A DNA stretch of 64,000 nt from Trypanosoma brucei (taxonomy: Eukaryota), in NCBI GenBank assembly GCA_000002445.1, contig CP000069.1, positions 1,216,001-1,280,000 of the forward strand, in the 5' to 3' direction. The position numbers and the translations under genes are program-made. A model generated the notes under the pieces. That model was not told the DNA's origin and did no database searches. It was given only the letters and a program-made list of their open reading frames with translations. This document shows, piece by piece, positions 4,714-48,147 of this stretch; position 1 is the first letter of the stretch, and the number at the start of each line of letters is the position of its first letter.

Positions 4714-7149
<2,436 letters not shown>

Positions 7150-29629: not shown

Positions 29630-31038
29630 CCGCTAAAATCACCCAGTTAGCGTGCTCAGTGCTAGTGTTATCACTGCTGCAACTGTACTAAGTGAGGTGC
29701 GGCCTACAAACTGAAACTTTCGATGCCCACCTCCAGACAGCCCCTCTCACTCCTTTTTTCTTCGGTTTGATTGCACCGGTCCCAACGGCAAGATGCTCCG
29801 CAGGAACTCCAAGCTTTTCCGCCCGACAGAAGAACAATGGTAAGTGCTAATTAGCTGTTACTCGTACCGCCTCCTTTTCTTTACTGATAAAAATAAACGA
29901 AGGAGAAATAGGACAAAGCGAAAACAGAAAAGAGAAACATTATGGCTCCTAAGACACGAAGCGCTCTACTTGGCACTGCACCTCAAGAGTCCTTCTTCCC
30001 AAAGAAAAACAAAATCAACATTGCGTTTTGCTTTCGACGAAAGAGGATAGTCGTCCGCCCACTGATCTCAATCCACCAGCGATGTTTTCTCTCGCACCCT
30101 CTTTGTTATTTTTCCTTTTTCTTTGCTTTGGTTAGTCTCCTTTGTTACTTAAATAACGGGCTGGAAAGGGCGTGATACCACGAGGGGACATGTGTTAAAA
30201 ATTGAGAGCTAAGTAGCCCATTCATGCATCGTTTCCTCAAGGTATTTCATCCCCACTCTCACAATGGTGCCTTTCTTTTTTCACCTGCACTCTACAGTTT
30301 CCCGTGGCAGATGATACATAACTTATGCACAAAGGAGCCTCCACTCACTCTTTTTTCTTTCGCCTTTCAACTTCACACAACGTGCCGATTGGAAGAAAGG
30401 GAGGAACACGAAGGGAAAACACGCCATATCAACCTTTACTCAGTGGGAGAACCACGCGTCTGCTTTCCGCGCTCTAGTGACTCAATCTAAAGCATACATG
30501 GCCCTTCCCTCCTTGCCGCCGATTAATTCCTCAACATTTTTATTGCTGCTCCCACTGGTTGTACACCTACGCGAGGCTATGTTCCCCCATTCCCCTCCCT
30601 TTCTGCGGCTTGATGACTTACACAGGAAACACGAGTGAAATTTAAAAAGGTGGAAAAAATAAGTTGGAGGAGACAATGGCCCACCCCTTGATATCACCTC
30701 TTCCCCCCTGGTTATAGTTTATACTCGAAAACAAAAATAATAATAATAAAAAACGAAATCGAAAATTGAGCAAAGGGGGAAGGTTTCCAGAAAAAGGAAT
30801 AAAAGAAAAAAACAAAAACGTTGCCGGTTACTCTTTCTTTCATTCTGATTTCTCTTCTTCATCCACTCCCGCCTTCCACTCCTCCATCTTTCGCCACTTC
30901 GTATGCACCCTTCCCCTCCATAACCATCTCTGACCCTGCCTTTCCCCTACCGAAGCTGTGAACACCAGGCAATCGACCGAAGCGTCAGACAAACGACACT
31001 CACCCAAAGGGTTCAAACATCCAAGTTCATTGAAGGGT

Positions 31039-32097
31039 TCAGCTGCGCTGCTTCTGACGGAAAACGTTAACGGTCGTTTGACTAGCACCGACAACAAACG
31101 GGGCCGCTTTGATGGAGTCCATCACGCTGTCTTCACCGGGCGAAAAGTCGAAGAACACGTACCCCTTGGCGGAGTTGTTACGGAGCGACACAATGCGTGC
31201 AGCAAGAGGGCCGAGTGCGGTGAGAATTTCCTCATCGGTGACTGCGTGATCGATACTGAACATCAGCCGTTCCCCAACGGGCTCCGAAGGAGCACGCGGA
31301 GCCTTTGCGGCACGCTTTGGGGAAACTTGCTTCCGCGAGTCGGACTGAGGGGCCTGCTTCGTGGGGGGTGAAGCGGGCTTGGGAGCCACCTTGTTTGCAG
31401 TACTCTCATTGGCAACCACCTTGATGGAGGGCCTCTGTTCCCCCTTTGTCGCGATGCTCGCGAGGCTGGCCCATGTCTTGGGTCCCGTTGGTGCGTCCAC
31501 AGCTGCCTCCGTCACCGCCGGAGCGGCGGTTGAAGGAGAAACACGGCCTTTTCCATCAGGTTTCTTATTTGGGGCACGCCGACTGTCCTCCTTCTTCTCC
31601 TCAACAGGGGTTCCAGTTGTCTCTGGCTCCGGCAGCGGTTCCTCCTCCTCTACCTTACCCTCAGGCTCATTCTTTCCCTCTGCGCAGCTCGGCTCCTTCT
31701 CCACAGCACCAGTCCGGGTGACGATCTGATTGCGAATGTAGAAGGACGATGGTCCATAGTCTCCGGCGGGGTACTCCTCCAGGTTAGTCACAAACTGGAA
31801 GAAGTGACGGACGGAAGCTGATTCCGCAACCAGCGTCAAGTGGATACATACACCGCTGTGAAACGGTAAGACGGAGACGTCCCCTACCGTCAGTTGGCAG
31901 TTTTGGATTATGTTTGCCCACTGCACGAGAGCAGGAGCAATGTCCGCACCGTATACCTTCTTTGTTCCACACTCAAAGTCTACGAGCATAAGTGCTGACT
32001 CTGAACCATACATACCCGCAAGATTTTCAGGAGCCGTAGCAAGCTCCTCGAAAAATGCAGGTGCAAACTTGTACGCTACCTCAGTTGGCGTTGGCAT
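31039..32097 (-). CDS. NTF2-domain + RRM RNA-binding protein (G3BP-like architecture)
   Basis: The N-terminal ~120 aa are NTF2-like (FAPAFFEEL...YGPSSFYIRNQIV). A low-complexity P/A/K/E linker follows. The C-terminal RRM carries an RNP motif KGYVFFDF. Confidence 0.65.
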   Translation of the reverse strand: MPTPTEVAYKFAPAFFEELATAPENLAGMYGSESALMLVDFECGTKKVYGADIAPALVQWANIIQNCQLTVGDVSVLPFHSGVCIHLTLVAESASVRHFFQFVTNLEEYPAGDYGPSSFYIRNQIVTRTGAVEKEPSCAEGKNEPEGKVEEEEPLPEPETTGTPVEEKKEDSRRAPNKKPDGKGRVSPSTAAPAVTEAAVDAPTGPKTWASLASIATKGEQRPSIKVVANESTANKVAPKPASPPTKQAPQSDSRKQVSPKRAAKAPRAPSEPVGERLMFSIDHAVTDEEILTALGPLAARIVSLRNNSAKGYVFFDFSPGEDSVMDSIKAAPFVVGASQTTVNVFRQKQRS

Positions 32098-32295
32098 AGC
32101 GAAAAAGCTTTCACTAGATAATGTAACTAAAACCTACCTTCCACAACACATGTAAAGAAAAAAAATTAAAAAAAATAAAAATAGCACTCCAGAGATTAAA
32201 TACACAAACTTTACACCTTTGAAAAGTGAACGGGGGAAAAGAAAAGAAAAGAGGGATGGACAACAACCTCGCTACGTTCAATGAAGTCAAGAAGC

Positions 32296-34107
32296 CTAAC
32301 CTGTAGAACCGCTTGTTGATACTCCCTTCAAGTCGTCACAGGGAATGTCCCATTTCCTAAACGATGCTATGCACAACGAAAGACAACGAGGGTCAACAGG
32401 GGACTGTGTTGCGCGAAGCACCGCAACAAGTTGCCGTACACTCCCAATGTCGACAACGAGACAAAGCATCTTGAAAAGACGAACAGATAATCTGCTTTCG
32501 ATAGAAACGCTTCTCTGCCTGTGGTACTCAACCAACATCATCGCGGTTGAAACATCCTGAGCATCAACTGCCAACTCAAGGCCACCACGAAGAAATTCCG
32601 CTGTCACTTCAACACCCAAATCTACCATGTCCTCCAGAAATGTTGGTATCTTCTTCACAGCGCTTACAGCATTGGGGGAGGTTGACAGTAGTAAAGTAAA
32701 CGTGCGTGCTGTCTCTCGCACAGCAACGTTTCGGAAAGTAAATAAGACCAGTGATGCCTTCTGTTCGTCTTTCATTAATGCACACGCTTCAAGCACAACA
32801 TTAAGTGTTTTATGACTCACATTCCCACCCGCAGCTTTGCGCTCCTCCAACAACAACAACGACTCCTCAACCCTGGAGTCCACTTCCGCAATAAAACGCA
32901 CAAGCGACATAACTGGATGTGCGTTAAGTAAAGTCAACCGCCTCGTCTCTAAGAAGAGTTTGGGTCTCGAACCTGGGATGGAGTCAGATTCCGGAATCTC
33001 ATCCTCTAATAAATACAACGCCTCCTTCAGTAACCCGGCCCGCACTAACGTCTCCAGGTGAAGGAGCGCCAGTGCAAACTTGTGCTGAGGAGGAATAATG
33101 CATGGATGAGCGCGAAGATACTTCAATACGTAATCAGCAGAAGCCACATCGCCCCATTTGGCACATTTCGCCATAAGTTTCAATGCAGTAACATCATTAT
33201 TCAGCACAGGTCCACCCTTTGCTTCCTGAAGGATCGAAGAACTTTCCTCAAAGGCATTGACACCGATATCGGCGCTGGCTTCGGCAACCTCCTGCTCGGA
33301 AGCGCCTTCCGCTGCTGCAATCAACTGGACAGCAATTGAGGGTGGTGACGCCACATTATTTGTGCTGAGCAACATATAGGGAAGAAGCAAGCGGGGAGAC
33401 ATTTTCTCACGGTCCGCAAGCCGCAGTAACTCAAAACATTCCTGAACCATAGTGACGTCGTGGTGGACACGGAGGAGAGTTTGAAAGCAATGTTGAAGGC
33501 GTATTGACAATAAGGGAAACTTTTGCTGCCAGTTCTTCCCCGATGTGATGATGCTCTTAGTATCCTCATGAATGGAAGGCCACCAGGAGGAATAGTCCTC
33601 TCCGAGTCGCGTGTATACGATGAAGAGAGAAATCTTCGTTACTACATCAGGTTCAGCACCTTTCATACGCATTGCCTCTATGGCGTTTTCAACCTCATAC
33701 TGATTGAAGGTATCACTAAGGGAAATGGCCAACAGGTATACGTTAAACAGTTCCACAGATGGGGAAGAAAGTTCCAACATGCACTGAGCAAATAAAAAGC
33801 GCAGTTCCTCAAGCTTATGAAGATCGCAAAGTATCTTCATCATGACAACCGCAAAAGGTTCTGTATCATCAAAAGAACCACAAAAACTCTGGAGCGGCTT
33901 CATATCCACCGTTGCTATGGAAGTGCCGGAGGTAACTTGTCGGTAATATGTACGAAACTCTTCAAAAACATGCCATGCGGCTGGTGGGCCCTCTCCATCC
34001 GACTGCAGCATCCTCAGAACTCGAATGTACGGATTGTCACCTGTGGAAAAAGTCAAAGAAGCACAGCTGGAAGCAGTCTTCCTAAGCACATTGAGGCGCC
34101 GAATCAT
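32296..34107 (-). CDS. helical-repeat protein, PPR/TPR-like (603 aa), copy B
   Basis: Protein identical to 22419..24230. Confidence 0.6.
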   Translation of the reverse strand: MIRRLNVLRKTASSCASLTFSTGDNPYIRVLRMLQSDGEGPPAAWHVFEEFRTYYRQVTSGTSIATVDMKPLQSFCGSFDDTEPFAVVMMKILCDLHKLEELRFLFAQCMLELSSPSVELFNVYLLAISLSDTFNQYEVENAIEAMRMKGAEPDVVTKISLFIVYTRLGEDYSSWWPSIHEDTKSIITSGKNWQQKFPLLSIRLQHCFQTLLRVHHDVTMVQECFELLRLADREKMSPRLLLPYMLLSTNNVASPPSIAVQLIAAAEGASEQEVAEASADIGVNAFEESSSILQEAKGGPVLNNDVTALKLMAKCAKWGDVASADYVLKYLRAHPCIIPPQHKFALALLHLETLVRAGLLKEALYLLEDEIPESDSIPGSRPKLFLETRRLTLLNAHPVMSLVRFIAEVDSRVEESLLLLEERKAAGGNVSHKTLNVVLEACALMKDEQKASLVLFTFRNVAVRETARTFTLLLSTSPNAVSAVKKIPTFLEDMVDLGVEVTAEFLRGGLELAVDAQDVSTAMMLVEYHRQRSVSIESRLSVRLFKMLCLVVDIGSVRQLVAVLRATQSPVDPRCLSLCIASFRKWDIPCDDLKGVSTSGSTG

Positions 34108-34573
34108 TGGTATCAGCTCCCCTGCACTCTCACATCCTTACGTGCCGTGGGATATAACATTATTATTATGGGACCAAAAGAAGGCAGTTAACCGTCAACC
34201 ATCGGAAAATACAAAAAGTATAGATGAAAAGGTGTGTTAAAACGAGAAAGATGAAATGGGATAGGGTCTCTAAATAAAATAAGAGAAGTAAGATGAAGAA
34301 GATAACCAGAAACAGAACCACTCCAACGCCAAACACGGATGCAACAACGCTAAACACAAGAGAAAGGAAGGGGAATCGTGTCGCCACTTTAACAACCTTC
34401 CAACGTGCGGGATATAATAAACTTAATTATCATGATATTAATTTGTTAACTTAAACCGACTGATAGCAGCTAGATGGCGAATGAAAAAGACATTAGCAGG
34501 GGGAAAATCTGCCTGCGCATATAAAGACTACTTCGAAGACAAGAAACCAACCAAAAGCACAGGGCTGCTCCGT

Positions 34574-35686
34574 TCATTCCTTCGCTCCAGAAGCTGCGGA
34601 AGTCCCTACAGTGCCAACCGCACGTTTTACATAGTTTACCTTCAGAACCCAGTGACCCGGTGTATACTCGTTCACTGTACGGTGATGCGCTTCATAGTTC
34701 GGATAATACTCGGGTTCCACACCAATCGTTCCCCCACTATGGTAAGACTTCCCCACAGCACTATCAGGGTCAATAAATACAATCACAGAAAACCGTTCAG
34801 GGTCGAACACTCTCAATACTCCACAGATACACTTCGAGTAATTAAGAGCACACGTATTCGTCTCATATGATGCAAACGAACAGTGCTCCTCAGGTGTTAT
34901 GTGTATCGTTTGATACTCGCTACCACGTATCGCATTTATGCTGTAGCCACATGGCTCATACTGAAGGTCGTGAAGGATCCATGAATCATCTACAACTTCA
35001 CTGAGCCCCGTTGCCTCCCGTATCACTGCGGTTTCAGGACCCGTAGGCAACATCTTATCCGAGTACCAGTGTTTCGTTTGATTGCGATCAAGCCCATACA
35101 TGGTCATGCTGAGTTGTGCATCGTCACTGCAGCTGGGTTGAACAACATCACTGTGGAAATACAAGAAGTAGTGGTCGCTGTCAATCGGACCAAATATGAA
35201 TGGTTGTCCCGACGGAAAATGGGACCTAAGTGTCTTAAATTCTTCCGCCATCGAAAGATGCGGTCCCTTCTGCTCCCACGGGAAACTGTAGTTTTTGTGC
35301 ATGAAGGAAACCCATTCTACTTCGCCGCAAACAGTACTCACCGCCTCGCATATGAGCGGCACGCAATTCAAAAGAGTGATGGTACCACAAGTTATGAGAA
35401 TCACGCGATCTTTCATTACAAACAATGAGCTCTCCGATAACACGTAGGAGCGAATGTATTCATTAAACTCACGGGAAACAATGTGTGCACATATAGCATC
35501 AATAACTTTTTGCCACACATCGTCATCGTGTGCAAGTAAACCACTAACGTGCGTCCCGTCCACCACCCGCATTATCACCTCCAAGCGCTTCTCAGGCCCT
35601 TCGAAGCTTCGCTCGTGCTTTGGGTCAAAACGAGCGATGGAACCCCACATCGCCATGAGCGAAAGAGAGTCCTTGCAAGAGGACAT
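34574..35686 (-). CDS. AdoMetDC: S-adenosylmethionine decarboxylase proenzyme (370 aa), copy B
   Basis: Protein identical to copy A. Confidence 0.92.
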   Translation of the reverse strand: MSSCKDSLSLMAMWGSIARFDPKHERSFEGPEKRLEVIMRVVDGTHVSGLLAHDDDVWQKVIDAICAHIVSREFNEYIRSYVLSESSLFVMKDRVILITCGTITLLNCVPLICEAVSTVCGEVEWVSFMHKNYSFPWEQKGPHLSMAEEFKTLRSHFPSGQPFIFGPIDSDHYFLYFHSDVVQPSCSDDAQLSMTMYGLDRNQTKHWYSDKMLPTGPETAVIREATGLSEVVDDSWILHDLQYEPCGYSINAIRGSEYQTIHITPEEHCSFASYETNTCALNYSKCICGVLRVFDPERFSVIVFIDPDSAVGKSYHSGGTIGVEPEYYPNYEAHHRTVNEYTPGHWVLKVNYVKRAVGTVGTSAASGAKE

Positions 35687-37954
35687 GACTAGTACTTCAG
35701 TCAGTGTGCGGTCAAATATAGCACCTTACGGATTAAATAACCAAACCAGACACGCACACACGCAGGCCCACAAAGGAATGGTGCGCTTCCTAAGAGTGCA
35801 AGCTCAACAAACAATGTACTTTTTGTGCTCGAGGATACGCGTACAAACTCCACAGAAAAAGGTCAAAAATCCGAAACGAGGGAAATAAAATATGAATAAG
35901 ATAGAATAGGGAGAAGAGAAAAGAAAGAGAAGGGAAAGGGCAGGTATTAGTGGTGCCTACATCACAAGTGCGAGTCGACAAAAAGGCATTTATGGAAACT
36001 TGACACACGGAGGTTGTGAAGCTCAACCAAAAATGAAGCCAAGAGAATTAATCTCTTTTGCGTCTTCCTTTAACCCTTTTGAGTTAGACTTCGCCACACA
36101 GGAGAAACCCCAGGTGATACTAATTTGGGGAGGAACGTATACATATACACATATATATTGATATGTGTAGGTATGTATACAAATATGTCTTCCTCTCCCG
36201 TCACCTCAGCTGATTATTATCCTTCACTCTCCCTTCTTTTCTCCTCTTCTATCCCTTTCAAATAGAATCAGAATGTTGGCGTTGAAACAACATGCAGAAA
36301 TGTGGAAAGATGGAAGAAACAAATGACCCATAGTCATGGGCTCCCGCCATACGCAAATACCTGGAAAGTGGGTAAGATAAACTGAGAACATATGAAAAAC
36401 AAACCGACAAAGGCAAAGGCAAAGGCGTGAGCAACTTGTTCGCTTGGAGAAATAAAATATGGCAACAACAGCAACATCACAAAACTGAGAGGAGCAGAAA
36501 CATGCTGGTAGTTCCTCACATTATCATGCGCTCTCAACGAAAGAAAAAAGGATAAATAAACGAACATGTGACCTCCCACCTTATTGACCACAAAAGTGTA
36601 AACTTCAAAATCATGTATGGAGGTCACATTTACTCTCAATCAGTTACCGTAAATCACACGCAAGTAAAAGTAACCTCAAATGCTCATTCTCATATGTCTC
36701 AATCACCCCTCACATCACCATCAGTCTCTGGTTTCCAGACTCGTATGTTACGCATATCTATCCTTAAAACACACAGACTCAGGTACATGTATTTGGCAGC
36801 GTCACCCCTCCGATATTGTATCACCTTCTCCCTTCCGATCGGCATCATTTCTCTTCTTCTAAAACGTTACTTGATTCTTTTCCTTCCAGTGCTATACCTC
36901 ATAACACATGTTAATGCACCATTTCTCCAGCCACACACGAAAGCAGAGGGAGAAAGTCGTAGATATTTTGTTACTATTATTCGATAATTCATCAACTCTA
37001 CACTTCATTTCATTCTTTTTCTTTCATATTACTCTTGATCCTCTTCCTTATACCTGCTTGAAGGTCTAATCACCTCTTTCGCTTCTGTTGTTTCAACTTC
37101 TTTTGACTTGTGCTTGTGTCGGTCTGTTGCGTTTCTCTTTATCCGTCACCTCGCTTCCTGTCGGATGACATAACTTCGGCTACTTCCTTTCAATACCACC
37201 GCTGCTTGGTATATAACCATATGATCTTCCGCCCCCAGTGATGGTAAGGAAAGGAAGTAGAAGTGAACAAGAAGGGCGAGGGGCAGGAAAAGCAATACGT
37301 AACGGCGACAAATGGTTCTTTCTTTTTTTTTCTTTTTGATAAATAAGTTTGCATGCAACAAAAACCCCGCTGCTGAAAGTCTGTTAAGGCTTTCGCTCAG
37401 TAACGTAAATTAGAGGCTCTATCCACCTTTCAAATCGCAAATACAAACGTACGGACGCGCGCGTATTCGTTTTCAAGCTCCCACCCACAAATACTCACAT
37501 CTTTGTTTCCGTTACTGTTCCGTCATTCCTGTGCCGTTGTCCATCGAATAGTTTTAAACCAGCTGTACAGTTGGACAAAAAAAGAAAAGGAAAATAGGCA
37601 TTATCAAGAGGTGCTGGTGGTGGGAACCATGAAAGCGAAACAAGGTTGGAAAAAATAGTGAAATGATACGGGGAGGAAAAAAGAAAGAACGAAAATGAAG
37701 GGGATGAGACACCACTAATTTGAACGAAGGTAAGCCACTTCACGTAACAAGCTGCTTCTCGATTTGGTTTTCTTTCCCAGCTGTTCATTAGCCTGTTCTC
37801 TTTTAATGCCTGATAGGAACTGCCGCCGCCGTCCATCTACTATCCTCAATAGCGGGTAACCACACAACTTTTTCACCCCTCCCTGCCCGCGCACCCACAA
37901 GACACATACACCATTACGGCAGCTCTTTATTATTATTACTATTAATATTACGTT

Positions 37955-37990
37955 ATATATATATATATATGTATACATATATATATATAA
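37955..37990. repeat. TA-rich microsatellite ((TA)n with one GTATAC interruption)
   Basis: Read directly. It lies in the 2.7-kb ORF-free region downstream of the prozyme. Confidence 0.85.
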
Positions 37991-39608
37991 AGAGAAAACC
38001 AAGTCAAGTTTTAAAGAAGAAAATCAAACATAATGGGTAGGGTGTGAAAAATGCTTATTGAACTCAAAAAAATGTTAAGAAACAAGCACATAGAGTGATA
38101 TTTTGCTCCTTTATAAGACGAAAAAGAGGAAAAAAAAGGAAGCTAAACCATTAAATGAATAGATAAACCGCCACAGCAAACAGACTATTAGGCAGCACCT
38201 TTCACTTCCAGCTTTTTCGTTTTGAAAAGAAAACAGCACAGATATCACGAACTGAGACACGAAGCACCCACAGCTGTACAGCTGTACGCATCAATACAAC
38301 CCACATACTCACTCACTGACGCACACTTTGCCCACTTTCGTGCAAACCAAATCACGCTCCACTTGTTTAGTGATTATGAAACGAAACGGGGCAACGGAGA
38401 CGTCTGAAGTACCAGTGCCTTCTTCCTGTCCCCTTTTCCCCGCAACCTCAGTGCTACGAATCCCTTCCATTGGTTCCGCTGATTTTAGGGTTTTGTGGGG
38501 TAGAGTAAAGGAAAAGCAGTTGTCCCGCGTTTATTACCTAATGTATTGAACAAGGTTCGATACAGTGGTAGAATTATTTTAAAACAAAAAATTAAAAAAA
38601 AAAAGAAATGCTCAGGCAAGCAAACCAGATTTCTTTTTCTATTTTTCCTTTTTTTTCTCAAGAAGAAAAATATGAAGCGTGCGGGTACTCATCGTTCGTC
38701 GTGAGCGCCGCCATTTTAGCTGCTGTTGTATGCGCCTATCCGCCAGTTCGAGCTGCCCGTGTGTCCGTGGGCGTTGGCTACAGGAGGGAGGGGTGAATGC
38801 CCCCCGAAAAGGTTTTACCACAACCACAACATTCTCTTTTGTTGATGAACAGAACCACTGCATCAGGCGCAAGCTGGGCCTTTCAAATTAAAGTTAATTT
38901 TTTAAAAAAAGCCTACCCGCATCCACAAACGAAAACAAAAACAAAAAACACAGTCACTTACCTGCTGACACCCCTTCGCACGCGCCTAATAGAGATAATT
39001 GAAAGGCGTGTATGCGTATGAATGAAAAACACCAGAAAACAAAAAACAGGAAAATGTGTGCCTCTTGACGGCTGCTATGGAAACATGAGGAGGGGCGGGA
39101 AAGAATCACGGGGGAAGAAGCGGGTTCAGCAGTTAAAATATTTTCTTTCTTCGCACCGTTAGACACGGCCGTTTCTTTTTTATTTTTTTTTTTGAAAACA
39201 AAAGGGGCTGCCGCAAAAGTGGTGTTGAGCGCTTTTAAGGAGCAACTCAATAAACTGGCACATGAAATGACAAAAGAGGCATTAAAACTCTCGAACCTTT
39301 GACAGTGATGATACTTAATAAGCGGATGTTTAAAAAAAAAAAAGAGCCCTCCATTGCAGATAAAAACGACAAATCAACAAATATACATGAACCGATTTAC
39401 GCACAATGGAATGACTCCGTTTTACTCCTCATCTTTAAAACCGACTACCATAGAATAACTGTAGAAATTAGGGGGAGAGTATCCATATATATATATATAC
39501 TTGTATGGCACCCAAAATACCTAAAAAGCTGAGGTGTGTTTTCGCGCTGACCAGGGTGACCATTAAAAAAAAAAACCTTCAGAAGCGTTTCAGCATCTGT
39601 ACTGGAAA

Positions 39609-40586
39609 TCAGGCACTGCGTGCGTATGTGGCCTGGTGGAAGACATAGCCTCCACCAAAGTGATTAGCACCGCGGTGCACGACGGTGAAACCTTCCAATC
39701 TATCCATAACGCCGCACGCAGTTGTGCCCTGTGCGTCCCGGTCCTGCAGCAGCACGAGCAGAACTCTCTCCGGGTAAAATTTTTTGAGAAGTCCATTCAC
39801 AATTTTTGTGATATCACTCGCGGCAGACACGGCATTCGTTTCGAAGGAGGCAAAGGGATGCGTGGACCCATATGTTGACACTCGCAACGTTTCGTACTCC
39901 CCCGCGCAGTGGGATACAAGAAGTTGCTGTTCTTTGGTGTTTCCGTCCAAGTCATACTCATCATCTGCTTGTACGTTGTACATGTAAACATTGATCTGCA
40001 CATCATTTTCCCTTCGACAACTGGACGGGTCGCGATCGATGCCATCGTACACAAAGTAAAAACAGTGATCACGGTCAACAGGACCAGCTAGGTACGGGTG
40101 GCCCGTTGGGAACGCGGACTTCAACTCGGCGTATTCATGAGCCATAATATCACTCGTTTCCGATGTCATGTCCCAAGGCGAGCCGTAGTTGACCCGCATG
40201 AAAGACGCCCAATCCACAATAATGTTGTGGGAGCGCATGAGCTCAAGCATCGGGTGTACCGCTTCGTGTAGCATCACTGAAACGGAAGAGCGCACAACAA
40301 TCTGCTTTGCCGTAAACACCAAGAGGGACCTGTCGAACTTAAGCGTATGAATTCCCAGCTCAGCGGAGTTCTGACGAAGTGACTCACCGGCACGCTCCAT
40401 CACGGATGCCAGCTGTTTTACCGTAACGGTTCCTATATCAACAGGCTGTGCGAAATTGAGTTCAAACCGCTTCTCCAGGCCGCTGTCCGTGGAGGTTTTA
40501 GATTGGGTGCAACCTCCCCAACATGACACAAGGTCATGCACCGAACTTGGGCACTCGGTTTGCTGGTTAATCCGCGTGACCGACAT
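39609..40586 (-). CDS. AdoMetDC prozyme (catalytically dead AdoMetDC paralogue, 325 aa)
   Basis: Recognisable AdoMetDC fold homology: GLEKRFELNF versus FEGPEKRLEV, FPTGHPYLAGPVDRDHCFYF versus FPSGQPFIFGPIDSDHYFLYF, and HCAGEYETLRVSTYGS versus EPCGYSINAIRGSEYQT. The proenzyme cleavage motif LSESS is replaced by FDRSLLVF, so there is no serine to form pyruvoyl. Start set at MSVTRINQ (ATG 40584-40586), 15 codons inside the track ORF. Confidence 0.85.
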   Translation of the reverse strand: MSVTRINQQTECPSSVHDLVSCWGGCTQSKTSTDSGLEKRFELNFAQPVDIGTVTVKQLASVMERAGESLRQNSAELGIHTLKFDRSLLVFTAKQIVVRSSVSVMLHEAVHPMLELMRSHNIIVDWASFMRVNYGSPWDMTSETSDIMAHEYAELKSAFPTGHPYLAGPVDRDHCFYFVYDGIDRDPSSCRRENDVQINVYMYNVQADDEYDLDGNTKEQQLLVSHCAGEYETLRVSTYGSTHPFASFETNAVSAASDITKIVNGLLKKFYPERVLLVLLQDRDAQGTTACGVMDRLEGFTVVHRGANHFGGGYVFHQATYARSA

Positions 40587-41254
40587 CCTTACCGTTTCCC
40601 TCTGGTGTAAAACCAGTTTGCCTCCCCTCAACTCGCCGTGCAGCAGAAGTAACGCACTTACACGTACAAATTAAAAAAATTAAAAGCAAGGGTCAAAGAA
40701 GAAAGATAAGTATTCTGCCATTAACCAAAGAACATATTAGCAGGCAAACAATCCAACAATGTGATATTTCACGATGACGCAGCAGCGAGGAAAATTTGGC
40801 TCTCTCCGTTTATGCGTTTCTGGGAAAGCTATGTGTATATTCTCAACCACATTTTTTTTAAGTTCAGGAAATTTTCATCGGGTAAAACTCTTATTGGCGC
40901 TCATCGCAGGAAACAGGTGTTGTCATTATCAGAGTCAATTGGATCAGGAATACAGGGAAGAAAGGCCTGCCCGAAACGCTAGATTTTCAGCTGTCAACAT
41001 TTTAAAAGGGGAAATTTTCACCAGTAATACAACAACAGTGTAGAAATGAATAGGAAGAAGAGAAAATATGTTATGCTGGTCCCCTGAGTAATCCTAGTCG
41101 CTCCGGTTATTAATGTCACCAGCTGTCAAACACTAAACTTACCAGACTCCCTCAGTGCCTGAAGAAGACCCGACTTCATTATACCCCATCCATTCCCCTC
41201 GTTTCCCTAAATAAATATCATGTTCTCAACTGAGGCGTTTGCATCTCCGGCGTC

Positions 41255-44182
41255 TTAGAGTAAACTCTTCATCTTTGTTAAACCCTCAGTCAGTTGTGCC
41301 TCCTGCTCAACAAGCGACTCCAGTTTAACCTTATTGGCCTCACGCACATCAGCAGGCACTTTGGTTTCATAACCTGGCATTGATATCTTCTTATTGACAC
41401 CCTCAATCTGCTTCTGGAGTCCGGCGAGCTGTTTCTCGAGCTTTGCTACCTCCTTCTGCACATCAATGAAGCCAAGCAGCATCATGTTAATGCTCAGGTC
41501 TTTGTTTACTACTGCAAAACCGCAGCCCTTCGGCACCGCAGCTGCCTCCTCTTCAGGGGGTATAACCGAGACCCTGCCCACAACACCAAGCGATTCAATC
41601 ATGAACTTGTGTGACTCGACGATTTCTCTTGTTTCGGCAGCACGAGCAGTAACCCAGACGTCTGGCTTGTGTTTGTTGGTGAGGGAGTAAAAGGCTTTCG
41701 TTGAGCGGACAATATGAACTGTTTCCATCAGCAGTTTCATCTGCTCCTCAACTTGGCTGTCTTGCCAACCAGACACCTCGGGGTAAGGGGCAACCACAAT
41801 ACTTTGGACGCCAAAGGATTCATAGTTTGGTAGATAGTGCCAAAGTTCCTCTGTGAGGAATGGCATCATCGGATGTAGCAGACGGAGGGCCACCTCTACC
41901 ACATGGAGAAGCACATCTTGCACGATCACCTTCTTCTCACCTCCCGCCTGGATGGTTGGCTTTGTCAGCTCAAGATAGACATCGCAGAGCTCATATAGCC
42001 AGAAGCGGTACACGGCGTTGGTCGCAAGTGCAAAATCGTATGTACCCTCAGAAAAACCACGGGTGCATTCCTCCACAGCCACATCAAGGCGGGAAAGGAT
42101 CCACCGGCATTCGAGTGGCAGGCTCGCTACCTTTTGAGAATTGACAAGGGTCGCCTTCGGCTTATAGTCTTCTCCTAGTGCATGATATAGCACAAAGCGC
42201 ACAGCATTCCATAGCTTGTTGCATAGTTGCCTGTAGGCAACGACGCGGTCAATATCCAGGTTAACGTTGCGTCCAGACTGAGTGTAGGAAAGGAGACCGA
42301 AACGCAGAGCATCGCTGCCACACTCCGGGATGCCATTCGGAAAGGTTTCCCTCTGCAACTTCAGAGCTCTGGAAACCTCCTTTTCGTCAAGGTTGCCCGA
42401 CCTCACTGTGTCATGAAGCGCTTCAAGAGACACGCCGCTTATAATGAAGAGCGGGTCAATCACATTTCCCTTCGATTTGCTCATCTTCTCACCGTTCTTG
42501 TCACGCACCATGGCATGCAAAAACACCTCCGAGAAGGGAAGCTTACCGGTGAAGTGGAGTGACGTCATAACCATGCGGGCAACCCAGAAGAATAGGATGT
42601 CGTGACCAGTTTCCATCAGACTTCCAGGGAAGAACCTCTGCATATCACCCGTTTCGGCCGGCCAACCCATGGTGGAGAAAGGCCACATGGCGGAGCTGAA
42701 CCATGTGTCAAGCACATCACTATCCTGCTCGAGAACCAGCTCCCTAACCTCCGCATCACTGAGATTAAACTTCTCTTTTGCCTTGGCCTTTGCCTCCTCC
42801 AAATTGCGTGCAACAACCCACGGGTCCTCGTGCGTAGATGGGACAGCACCTGTGCACTTGTATGCGGGAATGCGGTGACCCCACCACAGCTGACGTGAAA
42901 CACACCACGGTTTGATGTTCTCCAACCAATGATACCATACAACCTGATGCGTTGGTGGATACAAGCGCAGTTCATTGTTACGAACGGCCTCCACCGACTT
43001 ACGAGCCATCTCCGTGCAGTCCACGAACCATTGAGGCATCAACAGCGGCTCAACAATGTCACCGGTCCTACTGCAACGGCCAACCCGATACTCATATGGG
43101 ACCACTTCGCGTAAGAGTCCCATCTTTTCCAACTCCTTCACAATCTCACGACGGCAATCAAAGCGGTGCATCCCCTTGAAGGGGCCCTCGGTGGTGACGT
43201 GCCCCTTAAGATCCATCATCGTCAACTGCGAGAGATTGTGGCGCAGCCCCGCCTCGAAATCGTTTGGGTCATGTGCCGGTGTTATCTTCACAGCACCCGT
43301 ACCGAAGTTCACATCAACCAGAACAGGATCAAGAATTAGCGGAATCGTTTCATCGCGGAATGGGCACTTTAGCCGCTTACCGTGATACTTCTTGTACCGC
43401 TCATCATCTGGATGAACAGCGACAGCGGTATCTCCAAGAATAGTCTCCGGCCGAGTTGTTGCAATGATAATTTCGTCCTCGCTGTCGGCAAACTTGTAGG
43501 CGACGTGGGTAAGCACACCCATGTCAACCTTCCTGTCGTACCCCGGGATCGTGAGCTTCGCGTTCTTCGGAACATCCTCAAATACAACCTCAAGATCGGA
43601 AATTGCACTTTGCAGCGAACAGCACCAGTTGATGAGCCGTGTCGCCCGGTAAATGAGGCCATCTTCATGAAGCTTCACGAAGCCCTCGACCACAGCTTTG
43701 GCACATTGCTCATCCATTGTGAAACGCTCCCTGGACCAGTCCAGGCTCAATCCAATACGCCGAAGCTGACGAGTTATAACACCACAGTGGTTCTCCTTGA
43801 AGACCCACACTTGCTTCAAAAATTCCTCGCGGCCAACGTCGTGGCGCGACTTTCCACTCTCCTTCATGAGACGTTTCTCCACCACAACCTGCGTCGCAAT
43901 ACCCGCGTGGTCCGTGCCAGGAAGATACAAAGTGTCATCACCTTTCATACGGTGGAAACGGATGAGCGCATCCTGCACTGCCCCGGTTAACGCGTGTCCA
44001 ATATGCAGGTGCCCAGTAACATTAGGTGGAGGAGAGACGATAACAAATGACCGGCCGCGGATGGGACGGCCCATGTCTGACGCGGGGCGGAAGAAGCCGG
44101 ACTCCTCCCACCACTCGTACCATCCGCTCTCCACGTCCTTAGGAATGTAGGCCGGAGCCATCTGGGGAGCAAGTTGTTTCAT
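41255..44182 (-). CDS. ValRS: valyl-tRNA synthetase (class I, 975 aa)
   Basis: HIGH motif PPNVTGHLHIGHA, KMSKS motif EKMSKSKGNVIDP, an editing (CP1) domain and a C-terminal coiled-coil tail typical of ValRS. Confidence 0.93.
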   Translation of the reverse strand: MKQLAPQMAPAYIPKDVESGWYEWWEESGFFRPASDMGRPIRGRSFVIVSPPPNVTGHLHIGHALTGAVQDALIRFHRMKGDDTLYLPGTDHAGIATQVVVEKRLMKESGKSRHDVGREEFLKQVWVFKENHCGVITRQLRRIGLSLDWSRERFTMDEQCAKAVVEGFVKLHEDGLIYRATRLINWCCSLQSAISDLEVVFEDVPKNAKLTIPGYDRKVDMGVLTHVAYKFADSEDEIIIATTRPETILGDTAVAVHPDDERYKKYHGKRLKCPFRDETIPLILDPVLVDVNFGTGAVKITPAHDPNDFEAGLRHNLSQLTMMDLKGHVTTEGPFKGMHRFDCRREIVKELEKMGLLREVVPYEYRVGRCSRTGDIVEPLLMPQWFVDCTEMARKSVEAVRNNELRLYPPTHQVVWYHWLENIKPWCVSRQLWWGHRIPAYKCTGAVPSTHEDPWVVARNLEEAKAKAKEKFNLSDAEVRELVLEQDSDVLDTWFSSAMWPFSTMGWPAETGDMQRFFPGSLMETGHDILFFWVARMVMTSLHFTGKLPFSEVFLHAMVRDKNGEKMSKSKGNVIDPLFIISGVSLEALHDTVRSGNLDEKEVSRALKLQRETFPNGIPECGSDALRFGLLSYTQSGRNVNLDIDRVVAYRQLCNKLWNAVRFVLYHALGEDYKPKATLVNSQKVASLPLECRWILSRLDVAVEECTRGFSEGTYDFALATNAVYRFWLYELCDVYLELTKPTIQAGGEKKVIVQDVLLHVVEVALRLLHPMMPFLTEELWHYLPNYESFGVQSIVVAPYPEVSGWQDSQVEEQMKLLMETVHIVRSTKAFYSLTNKHKPDVWVTARAAETREIVESHKFMIESLGVVGRVSVIPPEEEAAAVPKGCGFAVVNKDLSINMMLLGFIDVQKEVAKLEKQLAGLQKQIEGVNKKISMPGYETKVPADVREANKVKLESLVEQEAQLTEGLTKMKSLL

Positions 44183-45802
44183 TAGGGGGAATATACGCCG
44201 AAACGTCGTTTTCCCGTTTACCTTGCAGTTAAATGTTTCACCTCAAAAGCCTCAGTCTCCTTATGGCCGAAAATAAAAAATTCTGAAAGCTCCTTCAACT
44301 GATAAGTGGTGTAAGAAAAACAAAAAAAAAAGAAAAAACAAGGGGAAAAGCACATTCCAGCGTCAACAACAGCTGAAGCAAGTAATATTCCAACTTCTCC
44401 ATTTCGGTTAAACAACTACAAATTTGTGTGGCATGAAAGCTGACCGCCTTTCTATTTCCTCACTCTCGCCTAATAAGAGCAGCAGCACTGGTTCCGCGCC
44501 AGCGCCAAGATGAAAAGAAAAAAAATCGTAATAGGGCAAAGAAAGTAGAAAAGGGAAATAATAGGGCATCACCCGTTACCGGCGATGTCGCACTCTACCC
44601 CACACTCGACACAATACACAAAAGAAAAAGAAAAGAAAAGTACCACAAACTGATGACTTCATCAAAAACATCACATATTGTCCTTTCCCCTCCCCTCGGT
44701 TGCCACGACAACGGAAGAAGAGCTTTTCTACTAACACATGTAACACCCGCACACATACACGTAAACGTACTTGAGCACGGGAAAAGATAAAAAAGACAGG
44801 GAAGAAATGAAATGAATCAGACAAATGCCACAGGATGTGACACTCGCCGATTCTCTGTTTTACGATCCCTCTTCGACGCATTTCTTCCCCATCCGCTTGC
44901 CTTCTATGCACTTAACCCGCCAGAACTCAAGAATAATGTACGACTGGAGCTAGCAATATTTGAAAAAGAAAAACAAGAAAAATAAATAGAAATTGGAAAC
45001 GCCCCTACTTTTCGCATTTTGTTTTATTTGCGTAATGATTCTCAACGAAACAACCCACTTCGTAAAGTCAAATAAAAATATATCAAGGAAGATCCGATCC
45101 CATGAAAATAAAAATAACTAAATAAACAGTGAAGGAAAAAAAGCCTCTTTCTTTTCTGCTGCTTCGACATCGTTAAGGTAGTGATGGGGTTTGGGAAAAA
45201 GAAAAAGTGGAGAAAGAAAAGACCATGGTCACCCGAAAGAAGCAACGGAGATTTGCGCGCATAGAAAAAAAAACTTCTCGCAACATCACTGCGTTTGGAA
45301 TTACTTCGACCAGGCAGCTCCCTACATCCGGCCCCTCTAATTGGGCTTCTACTCATCACAGTCTTGTTGTTCCACAAACCCTTTCAGGATTGCGATCGGA
45401 GCCGCTCATCGCTTTAAAAACTGCTCCTGAAGCGCAATTTCTGTTGTTGTTGTTGTTGGCTTCGTTTACATTTGTATTTACCTTGTATGATATTTGTTCT
45501 ATCCACCAAACTTCACCGGTTGCCTAGACGCATGTTGGCTGCGACGATAAGAACGCAACAGAGGAGATAAAGAAAGTTTAAAAAAAAAAGAAAACGATCA
45601 CGAAGCCACACGAACCCCTAGAACCTAACCCCCACCAACGTTTTTAACTGCTGCTGCTTCTTAAAGGCACCAAGCAGTCACGCATCATCTGTGACGGGTT
45701 GAAAGTGGCACCCTCCCTCCCAAGAAATGAAGACGCGCCTAACAAGCCGGGTATGAAGGTTCAAACTCTTCTCTTGTGCCTCATCTACTAACCTCAGGTG
45801 AG

Positions 45803-46306
45803 TTAGTTCAGAAATAGCTTTCTTGACTCACTCAGTTGCCGAAGAACCTCTCGCTGACGCTCATGGCACTTTTCCACCGAATTGGTAGAGTAACCATACG
45901 ACCAGTTACGCAGCTCACTGCTCCACAGCATCATAGACGAAAGATTGGCCACCACCTGTCGATACGGGTCTGTTGCACCTGGAAACGACGCCTCGGTGGT
46001 GTCAAATTCATCGTCCGCTGCACGCATCAGGGACCGCCACTTTGTCGCATTCACCCGTTGTTGCGGATCACGACTGCAAGCAACGGAAAGGAGGTGTCTT
46101 ACCATCAACCGGTGGTCCTCCCGTGATATCAAGGCTTGCTTCTCCTCTTCGGCCACAATTTCGTTTAGCCGCGCCTGCCGCCACAAGGCCACACTCTGGC
46201 GGTCCTGTTCAATATTGGCATGGCGAAGCTGCTGGGGGCACGAGGCGTCGAGAGGAACATTAAGCACCGCGCGGTTGGCAACGTTCAATTCACTGCTGGG
46301 CGCCAT
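45803..46306 (-). CDS. possible hypothetical protein (167 aa)
   Basis: Minus-strand ORF inside a long spacer. No domain recognised. It lies in a GC-rich area where ORFs open in several frames, so support is weak. Confidence 0.3.
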   Translation of the reverse strand: MAPSSELNVANRAVLNVPLDASCPQQLRHANIEQDRQSVALWRQARLNEIVAEEEKQALISREDHRLMVRHLLSVACSRDPQQRVNATKWRSLMRAADDEFDTTEASFPGATDPYRQVVANLSSMMLWSSELRNWSYGYSTNSVEKCHERQREVLRQLSESRKLFLN

Positions 46307-47600: not shown

Positions 47601-48147
47601 ATCTTCCCCTCGGCTTCCTTATGGCCTGTTTTTTTCTTTCTTCGTTCCCCTGTTATCAGTGTTCTTGGTGTATTTTTAACTTTGCGGCTTATACTTTTCT
47701 CACACTTTTACTTATTTTAATTACGGGTGGCTTTCCCTTGTCACCCCTTTGACTGCTAGCGTGATCCCTTTCGACCATTTTAGGGAGGTAGGAACGAAGG
47801 AAAAAATGGTGGAAAAAATAGTGCAACACACCAGAGGGTTCGCACGAATCAGAAGATGCGCTGTTGTTGCTCAAAGTCAGAAAGACGAAACGATGGTGCC
47901 TTCACACTACAAGTTGCCACGACGAAGCTCTCCACACTACAGTTCTGTCAATGTGCTCACCGTATTTGTGCGCGCGTGCAGCGTCTGTTAATGCATATAC
48001 ATACATATGTATATGACAAAAGATGAACCCGCAGGAAACATTTCACAGAAAATTTGGAGATACTAACAAAAAGGAACCCCCAGCTGTACAACCTCCCCAA
48101 GGGAGTTGGGGGAGGGGGAAAATATGGCGGGACCCCACCATACGCGG

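What the first reader, a model, noticed from the sequence alone, without database searches (positions are those of the whole stretch)
36930..40631. Catalytically dead AdoMetDC paralogue (prozyme) immediately upstream of the AdoMetDC cassette, followed by a 2.7-kb ORF-free flank
The 325-aa ORF is clearly an AdoMetDC-fold paralogue, but it lacks the LSESS autoprocessing site (FDRSLLVF takes its place). It cannot form the pyruvoyl cofactor. From established trypanosomatid biology, a dead 'prozyme' heterodimerises with AdoMetDC and activates it allosterically, and prozyme expression is regulated at the translational level. The sequence shows that the prozyme stop at 39609 is followed, in the direction of transcription, by about 2.7 kb with no credible ORF before AdoMetDC copy B. 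This flank is far longer than neighbouring spacers. It contains T-rich and A-rich tracts and a TA microsatellite at 37955..37990. It is a strong candidate for the long regulatory 3' UTR and/or unannotated ncRNA.
Basis: partly seen in the sequence, partly recalled or inferred. Interest (0 to 1): 0.6.

Follow-up and report, generated by a model that had tools for sequence, protein, structure and literature searches.

The report
Prozyme gene and its conserved 3' UTR
This is the known Trypanosoma brucei "prozyme" gene with its long regulatory 3' flank, already reported to control prozyme translation; new here is that the flank holds sequence blocks and a 42-base-pair long-range RNA helix kept across the genus Trypanosoma, a concrete candidate for the still unidentified sensor.

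Summary
The window is T. brucei chromosome 6. The ORF 39609..40586(-) is 100% identical to the crystallised AdoMetDC prozyme (PDB 5TVF chain E).

The gene-free gap to AdoMetDC copy B is 3,922 nt: 2,679 nt unique plus 1,243 nt of the duplicated cassette. That is 2.3 times the next longest spacer in the window. Papers I could read say prozyme synthesis is under 3'-UTR-mediated translational feedback and that the longest mRNA has a "putative secondary structure". The primary paper (Xiao 2013) was not available.

New here:
- The long prozyme-to-AdoMetDC spacer is kept in every trypanosomatid locus fetched (2.9-5.3 kb).
- Its first ~1.9 kb holds five collinear blocks conserved across seven Trypanosoma species (61-92% identity; neighbouring 4-fold sites 32-35%).
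- Core motifs persist in Phytomonas.
- No other intergenic region in 24.8 kb is conserved.
- Blocks C and D form a 42-bp long-range duplex: 93.5% paired, with 14 compensatory pairs.
- There is no conserved ORF and no Rfam match.

Best reading: a structured regulatory domain of the long prozyme 3' UTR. Function and transcript membership are inferred, not shown.

The parts
39609..40586 (-). Prozyme CDS (Tb927.6.4470), 325 aa, ATG at 40586, TGA at 39611..39609. It is a catalytically dead AdoMetDC paralogue.
   Evidence: It is 100% identical over 325/325 residues to PDB 5TVF_E/5TVM/6BM7. It hits Pfam PF01536 at 6.3e-13.
35687..39608 (-). The whole gene-free spacer between the prozyme stop and the AdoMetDC-B ATG, 3,922 nt. 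The unique part is 36930..39608. The part 35687..36929 belongs to the duplicated AdoMetDC cassette.
   Evidence: Supported by the ORF lists, the duplication boundary, and the lack of any Pfam hit or conserved ORF. Orthologous spacers are 2.9-5.3 kb in 11 named trypanosomatid loci.
39203..39283 (-). Conserved block A, spacer nt 326-406. It contains GCCAGTT(C/T), small local hairpins and CTCAACACCACTTTTGC.
   Evidence: Mean column conservation is 0.91 over 7 Trypanosoma species. Identity between T. brucei and the others is 78-84%. AACACCACTTTT is kept in Phytomonas.
39094..39134 (-). Conserved block B, spacer nt 475-515: AACTGCTG..CTTCTTCCCCCG. The segment 39124..39115 is the proposed partner of block E. 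CCCCCG at 39114..39109 is the proposed partner of CGGGGG in block C.
   Evidence: The alignment is. The 14-mer ACTTCTTCCCCCGC is exact in two Phytomonas species.
38731..38814 (-). Conserved block C, spacer nt 795-878: CGGGGGGCATT, then the pyrimidine-rich 5' arm of the long-range duplex (38797..38750), then GAACTGGCGGATAGGCGC. In T. brucei the arm is itself an 18-nt polypyrimidine tract followed by AG.
   Evidence: GGCAGCTCGAACTGGC is exact and single-copy in all 10 Trypanosoma loci, 0.04 expected in the window.
37954..37989 (.). (TA)18 microsatellite, lying immediately 5' of the D arm in the RNA sense, inside the loop closed by the C-D duplex.
   Evidence: Tandem Repeats Finder.
37850..37926 (-). 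Conserved block D, spacer nt 1683-1760. The purine-rich 3' arm of the long-range duplex is 37925..37872 (GAGCTGCC...GGGAGGGGTGAA).
   Evidence: 42 consensus pairs with block C are 93.5% paired, and 14 pairs carry compensatory changes. Duplex dG is -68.4 kcal/mol, z -6.4. The MFE and centroid folds of the 956-nt segment both close with this duplex, z -5.6.
37747..37774 (-). Conserved block E, spacer nt 1835-1862: AAAACCAAATCGAGAAGC(A/G)GC. GAGAAGCAG at 37760..37752 is the proposed partner of block B.
   Evidence: The alignment is. The B-E helix is 96% paired, with two compensatory pairs contributed by Phytomonas.
37668..37704 (-). 37-nt polypyrimidine tract about 45 nt after block E. It is the inferred processing signal that would end the conserved 3'-UTR domain. 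Similar tracts follow block E in the T. cruzi clade.
   Evidence: Scan, and the block E windows. Its use as a processing signal is an inference; no RNA data were available.
34574..35686 (-). AdoMetDC copy B (Tb927.6.4460), the catalytic partner. Its likely splice-acceptor polypyrimidine tract is at 35944..35903.
   Evidence: It matches PDB 5TVF_A and 5TVF_B, the beta and alpha chains.

Best explanation
The ORF is the T. brucei AdoMetDC prozyme. It is an unprocessed, catalytically dead paralogue that heterodimerises with AdoMetDC and activates it.

The proximal ~1.9 kb of its 3' flank (window 39608 down to about 37710) is the long 3' UTR of the prozyme mRNA. It carries a structured RNA domain kept since before the Trypanosoma radiation, with core motifs older still. 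Its proposed parts are:
- Block A, 5' of the domain.
- A B-E helix closing the domain.
- A short B-C helix (CCCCCG/CGGGGG).
- A 42-bp C-D duplex that closes a loop of 375-1,096 nt (824 nt in T. brucei).

This would bring the invariant single-stranded segments together at a junction.

Proposed function: this domain is the cis element through which AdoMetDC protein and/or its product dcAdoMet repress prozyme translation. Loss of AdoMetDC activity would then raise prozyme and restore enzyme activity.

Basis of each step:
- Shown here: the protein's identity, the spacer length, conservation, covariation, and the absence of coding signal or a known RNA family.
- Taken from the literature: translational feedback acting through the 3' UTR.
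- Inferred: that the conserved domain lies on the prozyme mRNA, and that it is the regulatory element.
For: Identity of the protein:
- Identical to PDB 5TVF_E, with its partner chains in the same entries.

Literature:
- Prozyme protein rises, but its mRNA does not, when AdoMetDC is knocked down or inhibited (PMC2562514).
- Regulation is 3'-UTR mediated (PMC6597758).
- The longest mRNA has a putative 3'-UTR structure, and a riboswitch-like or AdoMetDC-binding role has been hypothesised. How dcAdoMet is sensed is called an open question (PMC6221367).

Synteny and spacer length:
- The order ValRS, prozyme, long spacer, AdoMetDC is kept.
- Spacer lengths are 3.5-4.2 kb in T. vivax, T. cruzi, T. 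rangeli, T. conorhini and T. theileri, 2.9 kb in T. grayi, 3.2 kb in two Phytomonas and 5.3 kb in L. donovani.

Conservation:
- Five collinear blocks are conserved.
- They are the only intergenic conservation in 24.8 kb compared with five syntenic loci.
- Blocks are 61-92% identical, against 32-35% at 4-fold sites of the neighbouring ValRS gene.
- Within the T. brucei group, 5 of 311 block positions vary, against 186 of 3,611 outside. The two changes in the C arm keep pairing.

Structure:
- Independent MFE folds predict the GGCAGCTC/GAGCTGCC helix in 6 of 7 species.
- The alifold consensus has 42 C-D pairs, 93.5% paired, against 43-59% when the partner is slid.
- 14 pairs have double changes, against 3-8 in the slid controls. 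No shuffle of 500 reached the observed value on four of five measures.
- Duplex z scores are -6.2 to -9.1 in every species.
- The sense strand is favoured: 30 G.U against 4 A.C.
- The B-E helix gains two compensatory pairs from Phytomonas.

No coding signal or known family:
- No conserved ORF and no Pfam hit.
- No Rfam match.
Against: - No RNA data were available. It is not shown that blocks A-E lie on the prozyme transcript rather than on a separate one.
- I could not read Xiao et al. 2013. I therefore cannot say whether the conserved domain coincides with their 1.2-kb regulatory fragment, a detail I know only from memory of the abstract.
- Only 7 Trypanosoma species plus Phytomonas were compared.
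- The arms are pyrimidine-rich and purine-rich, so some pairing arises in shifted registers (57-59% at a slide of 2). The structure was also derived from the same alignment it was tested on.
- The B-E and B-C helices are nearly invariant and so are weakly tested (31/500 shuffles reach the observed value).
- The B-E helix is weakest in T. b. brucei itself.
- The long C-D duplex is not recovered in Phytomonas (z -1.1 to -1.6).
- No block was found in L. donovani or in two compact kinetoplastid contigs.
- Prozyme regulation has been shown only in T. brucei.
Confidence: 0.6

Rival explanations
1. The conserved duplex controls mRNA processing rather than translation. The C arm is a polypyrimidine tract followed by AG. 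Pairing with the purine-rich D arm would mask it from the trans-splicing and polyadenylation machinery. That would decide which of the alternative prozyme transcripts, short or long 3' UTR, is made.
For: - In T. brucei the C arm is an 18-nt polypyrimidine tract with AG directly after it. The arm is pyrimidine-rich in all species.
- Patel 2018 mentions alternatively processed prozyme mRNA variants.
- Several other polypyrimidine tracts lie in the loop and after block E.
Against: - Published work reports unchanged prozyme mRNA levels on induction, pointing to translation.
- This idea does not explain conservation of blocks A, B and E or of the invariant unpaired segments.
Confidence: 0.15
2. The blocks belong to an independent non-coding RNA transcribed and processed from the spacer, not to the prozyme mRNA. 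Its link to prozyme would then be positional only.
For: - The spacer is long and holds many internal polypyrimidine-AG sites that could yield separate spliced RNAs.
- Covariation shows selection at the RNA level, but does not say which transcript is involved.
Against: - The blocks start only 90-370 nt after the prozyme stop, always on the prozyme strand and always in this one spacer.
- There is no Rfam family and no snoRNA-like match.
- The literature places a regulatory structure in the long prozyme 3' UTR.
Confidence: 0.12
3. The long flank is non-functional spacer, such as a decayed gene or a by-product of the cassette duplication, and the apparent conservation is chance or low complexity.
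For: The distal ~2 kb of the spacer (37668..35687) shows no cross-species conservation. The flank is rich in simple tracts.
Against: - An exact single-copy 16-mer is present in all 10 Trypanosoma loci.
- Blocks are 61-92% identical where synonymous sites are saturated.
- There are compensatory changes.
- Blocks keep the same order in nine species.
Confidence: 0.03

Closest known systems
T. brucei AdoMetDC prozyme and its 3'-UTR-mediated translational feedback (Willert 2007/2008; Xiao 2013; Volkov 2016; Patel 2018)
   Same: It is the same gene and the same locus. The protein is identical to the crystallised prozyme. The long 3' flank is where the literature places the regulatory element and a 'putative secondary structure'.
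   Different: None of the papers I could read describe several things found here:
- five blocks conserved across the genus Trypanosoma and partly in Phytomonas;
- a covarying 42-bp long-range duplex;
- a long spacer conserved across the family.

I could not check Xiao 2013 for these.
Bacterial SAM and SAH riboswitches (Rfam SAM clans)
   Same: The Phillips laboratory has proposed a riboswitch-like sensor of an AdoMet derivative (dcAdoMet) for this UTR. Here there is a conserved junction of helices with invariant unpaired nucleotides, the general anatomy of a ligand-binding RNA.
   Different: - No Rfam riboswitch model matches.
- The element is in a eukaryotic 3' UTR and spans about 1.5 kb, with loops hundreds of nucleotides long.
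- No ligand binding has been shown.
- AdoMetDC protein is also required for repression, which points to a protein-RNA mechanism.
Enzyme autoregulation by binding its own or a partner's mRNA (mammalian and Plasmodium DHFR/TS)
   Same: Patel 2018 proposes that AdoMetDC, directly or through an RNA-binding protein, binds prozyme mRNA to block translation. A conserved structured platform is what such a model needs.
   Different: - The target here is the mRNA of a paralogous activator, not the enzyme's own mRNA.
- The site is in the 3' UTR.
- Binding is untested.
Short conserved 3'-UTR stem-loops in trypanosomes, e.g. the purine-response element of NT8 (Fernandez-Moya 2014, cited in PMC6597758)
   Same: Both are metabolite-responsive, 3'-UTR-borne structured elements controlling expression in a polycistronic genome.
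   Different: Those elements are single hairpins of a few tens of nucleotides. This one is a multi-block domain with long-range pairing over 0.4-1.1 kb.

Membership tests
AdoMetDC prozyme (dead AdoMetDC paralogue of trypanosomatids) | AdoMetDC fold and family membership | tested here: met
   Pfam PF01536 at 6.3e-13. It is 25% identical to AdoMetDC-B, E 3e-22. It is identical to PDB 5TVF_E.
AdoMetDC prozyme (dead AdoMetDC paralogue of trypanosomatids) | Loss of the Glu-Ser autoprocessing site; no pyruvoyl group | tested here: met
   AdoMetDCs have (S/T)ES|S. Prozyme has DRS, and orthologues have R/K/N/H/Q/D followed by S/T/C. A Ser is kept at the aligned position, so the sequence alone is not decisive. 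The PDB entry holds one uncleaved 325-residue chain, and PMC5201418 states that it is not processed.
AdoMetDC prozyme (dead AdoMetDC paralogue of trypanosomatids) | Forms a heterodimer with AdoMetDC and activates it | not testable with these tools
   This is known from the literature for this exact sequence: PDB 5TVF/5TVM hold both proteins, and see PMC5201418.
AdoMetDC prozyme (dead AdoMetDC paralogue of trypanosomatids) | Syntenic position between valyl-tRNA synthetase and AdoMetDC | tested here: met
   The same gene order holds in all trypanosomatid loci fetched that extend across these genes.
Published prozyme 3'-UTR translational control element (Xiao 2013) | Lies within the mapped 3' UTR of the longest prozyme mRNA and within the 1.2-kb fragment that confers regulation on a reporter | not testable with these tools
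   The paper is not held. The fragment size is from my memory of its abstract.
Conserved structured RNA (comparative criterion) | Base pairs maintained by compensatory changes beyond controls | tested here: met
   C-D duplex: 14 of 42 pairs have double changes and 93.5% of cells are paired. Slid controls give 3-8 pairs and 43-59%. No shuffle of 500 reached the observed value on four of five measures. The sample is small, at 7 species.
Riboswitch (any Rfam class, including SAM/SAH) | Match to a curated riboswitch covariance model | tested here: not met
   Nothing at gathering score. There were only noise hits (E 0.22-0.91) in 35600..41300, and none in six orthologous loci.
Riboswitch (any Rfam class, including SAM/SAH) | Direct, specific ligand binding that changes RNA structure | not testable with these tools
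   This needs in-line probing, ITC or DMS-MaP with and without dcAdoMet.
snoRNA or other known small ncRNA gene | Match to a known family | tested here: not met
   No Rfam match.

The most novel reading that the evidence does not exclude
The conserved junction formed by blocks B, C, D and E, closed by the covarying 42-bp duplex and possibly contacted by block A (GCCAGTTC against GAACTGGC), is the long-sought sensor of the prozyme feedback loop. It would be a eukaryotic 3'-UTR RNA that binds dcAdoMet directly (riboswitch-like) or serves as the docking site for AdoMetDC protein. It would be ancestral to all Trypanosoma, so that T. cruzi and the livestock trypanosomes regulate polyamine synthesis the same way.
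Probability: 0.3. Interest if true: 0.8.

Novelty: already known. Interest (0 to 1): 0.5.

Why it matters
AdoMetDC/prozyme is a validated drug target in African trypanosomes. Up-regulation of prozyme is the parasite's compensatory response to AdoMetDC inhibitors. The authors of the 2018 study state that how dcAdoMet is sensed remains open.

The comparative result gives the field defined nucleotides to mutate: five blocks, two duplex arms and their compensatory pairs.

It also predicts that the control circuit is not a T. brucei peculiarity but is shared by T. cruzi, T. vivax and other trypanosomes. Non-coding conservation over this evolutionary distance appears unusual. It was the only case among the intergenic regions of the 24.8 kb examined.

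Tried and rejected
- **Rfam.** Scans of the flank (E up to 1), of six orthologous loci at gathering threshold, and of the T. grayi spacer gave only noise.
- **Metagenome scan.** A search for GGGGGGCATT-N(28-52)-GGCAGCTCGAACTGGC gave 0 hits.
- **Distant species.** nhmmer profiles of the five blocks and fuzzy motif searches found nothing in L. donovani, a compact metagenomic kinetoplastid (L014) or a Logan contig (L017).
- **Phytomonas C-D duplex.** It is not significant, z -1.1 to -1.6.
- **Gapless inverted-repeat finder.** It was dominated by TA and A/T tracts and did not surface the bulged C-D duplex.
- **Coding hypothesis.** Rejected. There is no Pfam hit for seven spacer ORFs. tblastn hits are short, multi-frame and two-stranded. 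There are 1-nt indels inside blocks A and C.
- **Literature.**
  - Xiao 2013 (PMC3771639) and Willert 2007 (PMC1895940) are not held.
  - Text searches for the gene ID and for reporter details found only the two Phillips papers.
  - Mao 2009's genome-wide functional-RNA tables list a hit inside the prozyme CDS, but none at the coordinates of the blocks.
  - The supplements of Doniger 2010 hold neither the block C motif nor the two gene IDs.
- **The two 352-aa ORFs** near the cassette are unrelated, not a duplication.
- **A1 (GCCAGTTC) with C2 (GAACTGGC).** This 8-bp complement is invariant apart from a U.G in T. brucei, so covariation cannot test it. It was predicted in the MFE fold only for T. 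cruzi. I leave it as a possible pseudoknot or alternative pairing.

Full report
**What is at the coordinates**

The window is Trypanosoma brucei chromosome 6. An 80-mer listed in the supplement of Mao et al. 2009 at Tb927_06 1,255,848 maps to window 39848, so the window is chr6 1,216,001-1,280,000.

The ORF at 39609..40631(-) is listed from a TTG. From its ATG at 40586 it encodes 325 residues. These are identical, 325 of 325, to chain E of PDB 5TVF/5TVM/6BM7, 'Inactive S-adenosylmethionine decarboxylase prozyme'. The 370-aa ORF at 34574..35686(-) is AdoMetDC, matching the alpha and beta chains of the same entries.

**Processing site**

AdoMetDC has YVLSE|SSLFV and prozyme has LKFDRSLLVF.
- BLASTP and a MAFFT alignment of 22 sequences put the pyruvoyl-precursor Ser86 opposite prozyme Ser87.
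- HMMER's alignment starts at residue 86 in both proteins, so it may be offset by one.
- Every prozyme orthologue has Ser, Thr or Cys at that position, but never Glu before it.

The statement 'lacks the LSESS site' is right. The inference 'cannot form pyruvoyl' rests on experiment, not on the absence of a Ser. Volkov et al. [quoted passage not shown] The deposited chain is one uncleaved polypeptide.

**The flank**

Coordinate 36930 is exactly the upstream edge of a 4,758-nt, 99.85% identical duplication, 22298..27052 = 32172..36929. The duplication carries AdoMetDC and the next gene. This gives:
- a unique flank of 2,679 nt;
- a true distance from the prozyme stop to the AdoMetDC-B ATG of 3,922 nt;
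- a next longest same-strand gap in the window of 1,685 nt.

The longest sense ORFs in the spacer are 113, 98 and 95 aa. None has a Pfam hit. The (TA)18 array is at 37954..37989. Rfam finds nothing credible.

**What is already published**

- Prozyme protein rises, but its mRNA does not, when AdoMetDC is depleted or inhibited (PMC2562514).
- Clayton's 2019 review lists this feedback as 3'-UTR mediated, citing Xiao et al. 2013 (PMC6597758).
- Patel et al. 2018 write that the longest of several prozyme mRNAs contains a putative secondary structure. They hypothesised that it has a riboswitch-like function binding dcAdoMet, or is bound by AdoMetDC or an RNA-binding protein. They state that how dcAdoMet is sensed remains an open question (PMC6221367).
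- Xiao 2013 itself is not in the library. From memory, its abstract reports three transcripts, mapped 3' UTRs, and a 1.2-kb 3'-UTR region sufficient for regulation of a CAT reporter.

**Comparative evidence gathered here**

I fetched the orthologous locus from T. b. gambiense and another T. brucei-group assembly, T. vivax (two), T. cruzi (two), T. rangeli, T. conorhini, T. theileri, T. grayi, L. donovani, two Phytomonas, and three contigs from two uncharacterised kinetoplastids.

The gene order ValRS, prozyme, spacer, AdoMetDC holds in every locus that extends across these genes. The prozyme-to-AdoMetDC spacer is always the longest locally:

| Taxon | Spacer (kb) |
|---|---|
| T. brucei group | 3.9 |
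| T. vivax | 3.55 |
| T. cruzi | 4.0 |
| T. rangeli | 4.2 |
| T. conorhini | 4.1 |
| T. theileri | 3.5 |
| T. grayi | 2.9 |
| Phytomonas | 3.2 |
| L. donovani | 5.3 |
| compact metagenomic genome (neighbours 0.15-0.3 kb) | 0.87 |

**Conserved blocks**

BLASTN between spacers gave collinear hits among all Trypanosoma species.

As a control, I compared 24.8 kb of the window (28000..52800) with five syntenic loci. The only intergenic hits below 1e-4 were in this flank. None fell in the other intergenic regions.

MAFFT and motif-anchored windows define five blocks:

| Block | Window coordinates |
|---|---|
| A | 39283..39203 |
| B | 39134..39094 |
| C | 38814..38731 |
| D | 37926..37850 |
| E | 37774..37747 |

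- The 16-mer GGCAGCTCGAACTGGC is exact and single-copy in all ten Trypanosoma loci.
- Blocks are 61-92% identical between T. brucei and the other species.
- Four-fold degenerate sites of the adjacent ValRS gene are only 32-35% identical to four stercorarian species, i.e. saturated.
- Within the T. brucei group, 5 of 311 block positions vary, against 186 of 3,611 elsewhere.
- Both Phytomonas species keep ACTTCTTCCCCCGC, ACGGGGGGCATT, ATCGAGAAG and AACACCACTTTT exactly. They keep CCTTAGTGGTG with at most one mismatch. All are in the same order.
- L. donovani and the two compact kinetoplastid contigs show none of them.

**Not coding**

Translated comparisons give only 10-33-aa matches. These occur in several frames and on both strands at the same places. 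Blocks A and C contain 1-nt indels.

**RNA structure**

- Folding each species' A-to-E region separately (1.07-2.04 kb) predicted the helix GGCAGCTC/GAGCTGCC between blocks C and D in six of seven species.
- RNAalifold on the concatenated blocks extends this to 42 pairs between the pyrimidine-rich C arm and the purine-rich D arm.
- On alignment A1, 93.5% of cells are paired, against 43-59% when the partner is slid by 1-3 columns.
- 14 pairs (22 cells) carry changes on both sides, against 3-8 pairs in the slid controls. No shuffle of 500 reached the observed value on four of five measures.
- The salivarian species have UUCACCCCUCCCU/AGGGAGGGGUGAA where the stercorarian species have UUUUUCUUAACCG/CGGGGAGAGAAAAA.
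- Duplex energies are -56 to -68 kcal/mol, with z of -6.2 to -9.1 in each species.
- The 956-nt T. brucei segment closes with this duplex in both the MFE and the centroid fold (z -5.6).
- G.U pairs favour the prozyme-sense strand: 30 G.U against 4 A.C, and 93.5% paired against 84.7% on the antisense strand.
- Two polymorphisms in the C arm among T. brucei-group genomes keep pairing.

A 10-bp B-E helix is 96% paired and gains two compensatory pairs from Phytomonas. It is otherwise invariant and only weakly tested. A 6-bp CCCCCG/CGGGGG helix links B to C but is invariant.

Together these would form a junction that brings the invariant unpaired segments together. Block A's GCCAGTTC is complementary to GAACTGGC just inside the C-D helix. 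That pairing is invariant and therefore untestable by covariation.

Caveats:
- Only seven species were compared.
- The arms are of low complexity.
- The structure was derived from the alignment it was tested on.
- The long duplex is not recovered in Phytomonas.

**Where the domain ends**

A 37-nt polypyrimidine tract (37704..37668) follows block E by about 45 nt. Similar tracts follow block E in the T. cruzi clade. By the usual coupling of polyadenylation to the next polypyrimidine tract in trypanosomes (established knowledge), a long prozyme mRNA would end near 37,710-37,740. That gives a 3' UTR of about 1.9 kb holding all five blocks.

A 17-nt tract at spacer 262-278 could give a short isoform lacking them. 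Both points are inferences.

The distal ~2 kb of the spacer shows no deep conservation. Its last 1,243 nt are part of the duplicated AdoMetDC cassette.

**Mechanism and rivals**

- Most likely (about 0.6): the conserved domain is the cis element of the published translational feedback. It would act as a platform for AdoMetDC, an RNA-binding protein and/or dcAdoMet.
- Rival 1 (0.15): the duplex masks the polypyrimidine-AG signal in the C arm and so controls alternative processing.
- Rival 2 (0.12): the blocks lie on a separate non-coding transcript.
- Rival 3 (0.03): the flank is functionless spacer. This is excluded for the proximal 1.9 kb.

**Novelty and verdict**

The prozyme, its inactivity and the regulatory long 3' UTR are already known, so the finding as written is a correct rediscovery. 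Three things go beyond what I could find in the accessible literature:
- conservation of the long spacer across the family;
- the five blocks conserved across the genus;
- the covarying long-range duplex.

The tables of one genome-wide structured-RNA screen list no hit at these coordinates. The supplements of a second hold neither the motif nor the gene IDs. The unread 2013 paper may already describe part of this structure.

The value is practical. It turns 'a putative structure somewhere in a 1.2-kb region' into defined nucleotides with testable compensatory mutations. It also predicts that the circuit operates throughout Trypanosoma.

Noticed in passing
window 22298..27052 and 32172..36929; also 2115..4549 and 4717..7151: There are two near-identical segmental duplications, 99.85% and 99.88% identical. 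The T. b. gambiense and second T. brucei-group loci (L001, L002) show only one AdoMetDC copy, followed directly by the 603-aa gene and the kinesin.
   Followed up: partly
window 38797..38780 (C arm), AG at 38779..38778: The 5' arm of the conserved duplex is itself an 18-nt polypyrimidine tract followed directly by AG, a potential trans-splice or polyadenylation signal. Pairing with the purine-rich D arm would hide it.
   Followed up: partly
prozyme residue 87 and orthologues (P0002-P0017): All prozyme orthologues keep a nucleophilic residue (Ser, Thr or Cys) at the position aligned with the pyruvoyl-precursor Ser86 of AdoMetDC. All have lost the preceding Glu. The reason for keeping this residue in a dead paralogue is unexplained.
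   Followed up: partly
window 39848..39927 (+), inside the prozyme CDS: Mao et al. 2009 predicted a 'functional RNA' here, on the strand opposite to prozyme (chr6 1,255,848-1,255,927). It overlaps coding sequence, so its conservation may simply reflect the protein.
   Followed up: no
L014 and L015 (ENA metagenome scaffolds); L017 and L018 (Logan SRR27700417 and SRR27700418): These uncharacterised kinetoplastid contigs have very compact intergenic regions. They keep the ValRS, prozyme-like, AdoMetDC order and a dead paralogue (Cys at the Ser86 position). The prozyme-to-AdoMetDC gap is still the longest locally (865 and 1,608 nt), but none of the Trypanosoma blocks is present.
   Followed up: partly
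window 36568..36987 (+); L001 13612..13986 (-); L005 8016..8357 (+): Annotators called small hypothetical ORFs (113-124 aa) inside the spacer in T. b. gambiense and T. vivax. The T. b. gambiense one corresponds to a 139-aa antisense ORF straddling the duplication edge in the window. The window ORF has no Pfam hit and the annotated ORFs carry no Pfam annotation; tblastn of the T. brucei spacer ORFs found no conserved translation there.
   Followed up: partly
window 37760..37752 (block E) compared with L001: T. b. brucei has GAGAAGCAGCT where T. b. gambiense and all other trypanosomes have GAGAAGCGGCG. The B-E helix is therefore weakest in the very strain sequenced here. It is a derived variant of unknown consequence.
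   Followed up: no
L013 12739..12757 with 12997..13015 (Phytomonas EM1): In Phytomonas the block D segment AAATGAGAATACCTTAGTG is 74% complementary to a segment about 240 nt upstream rather than to block C. The partner of block D may have moved in that lineage.
   Followed up: no
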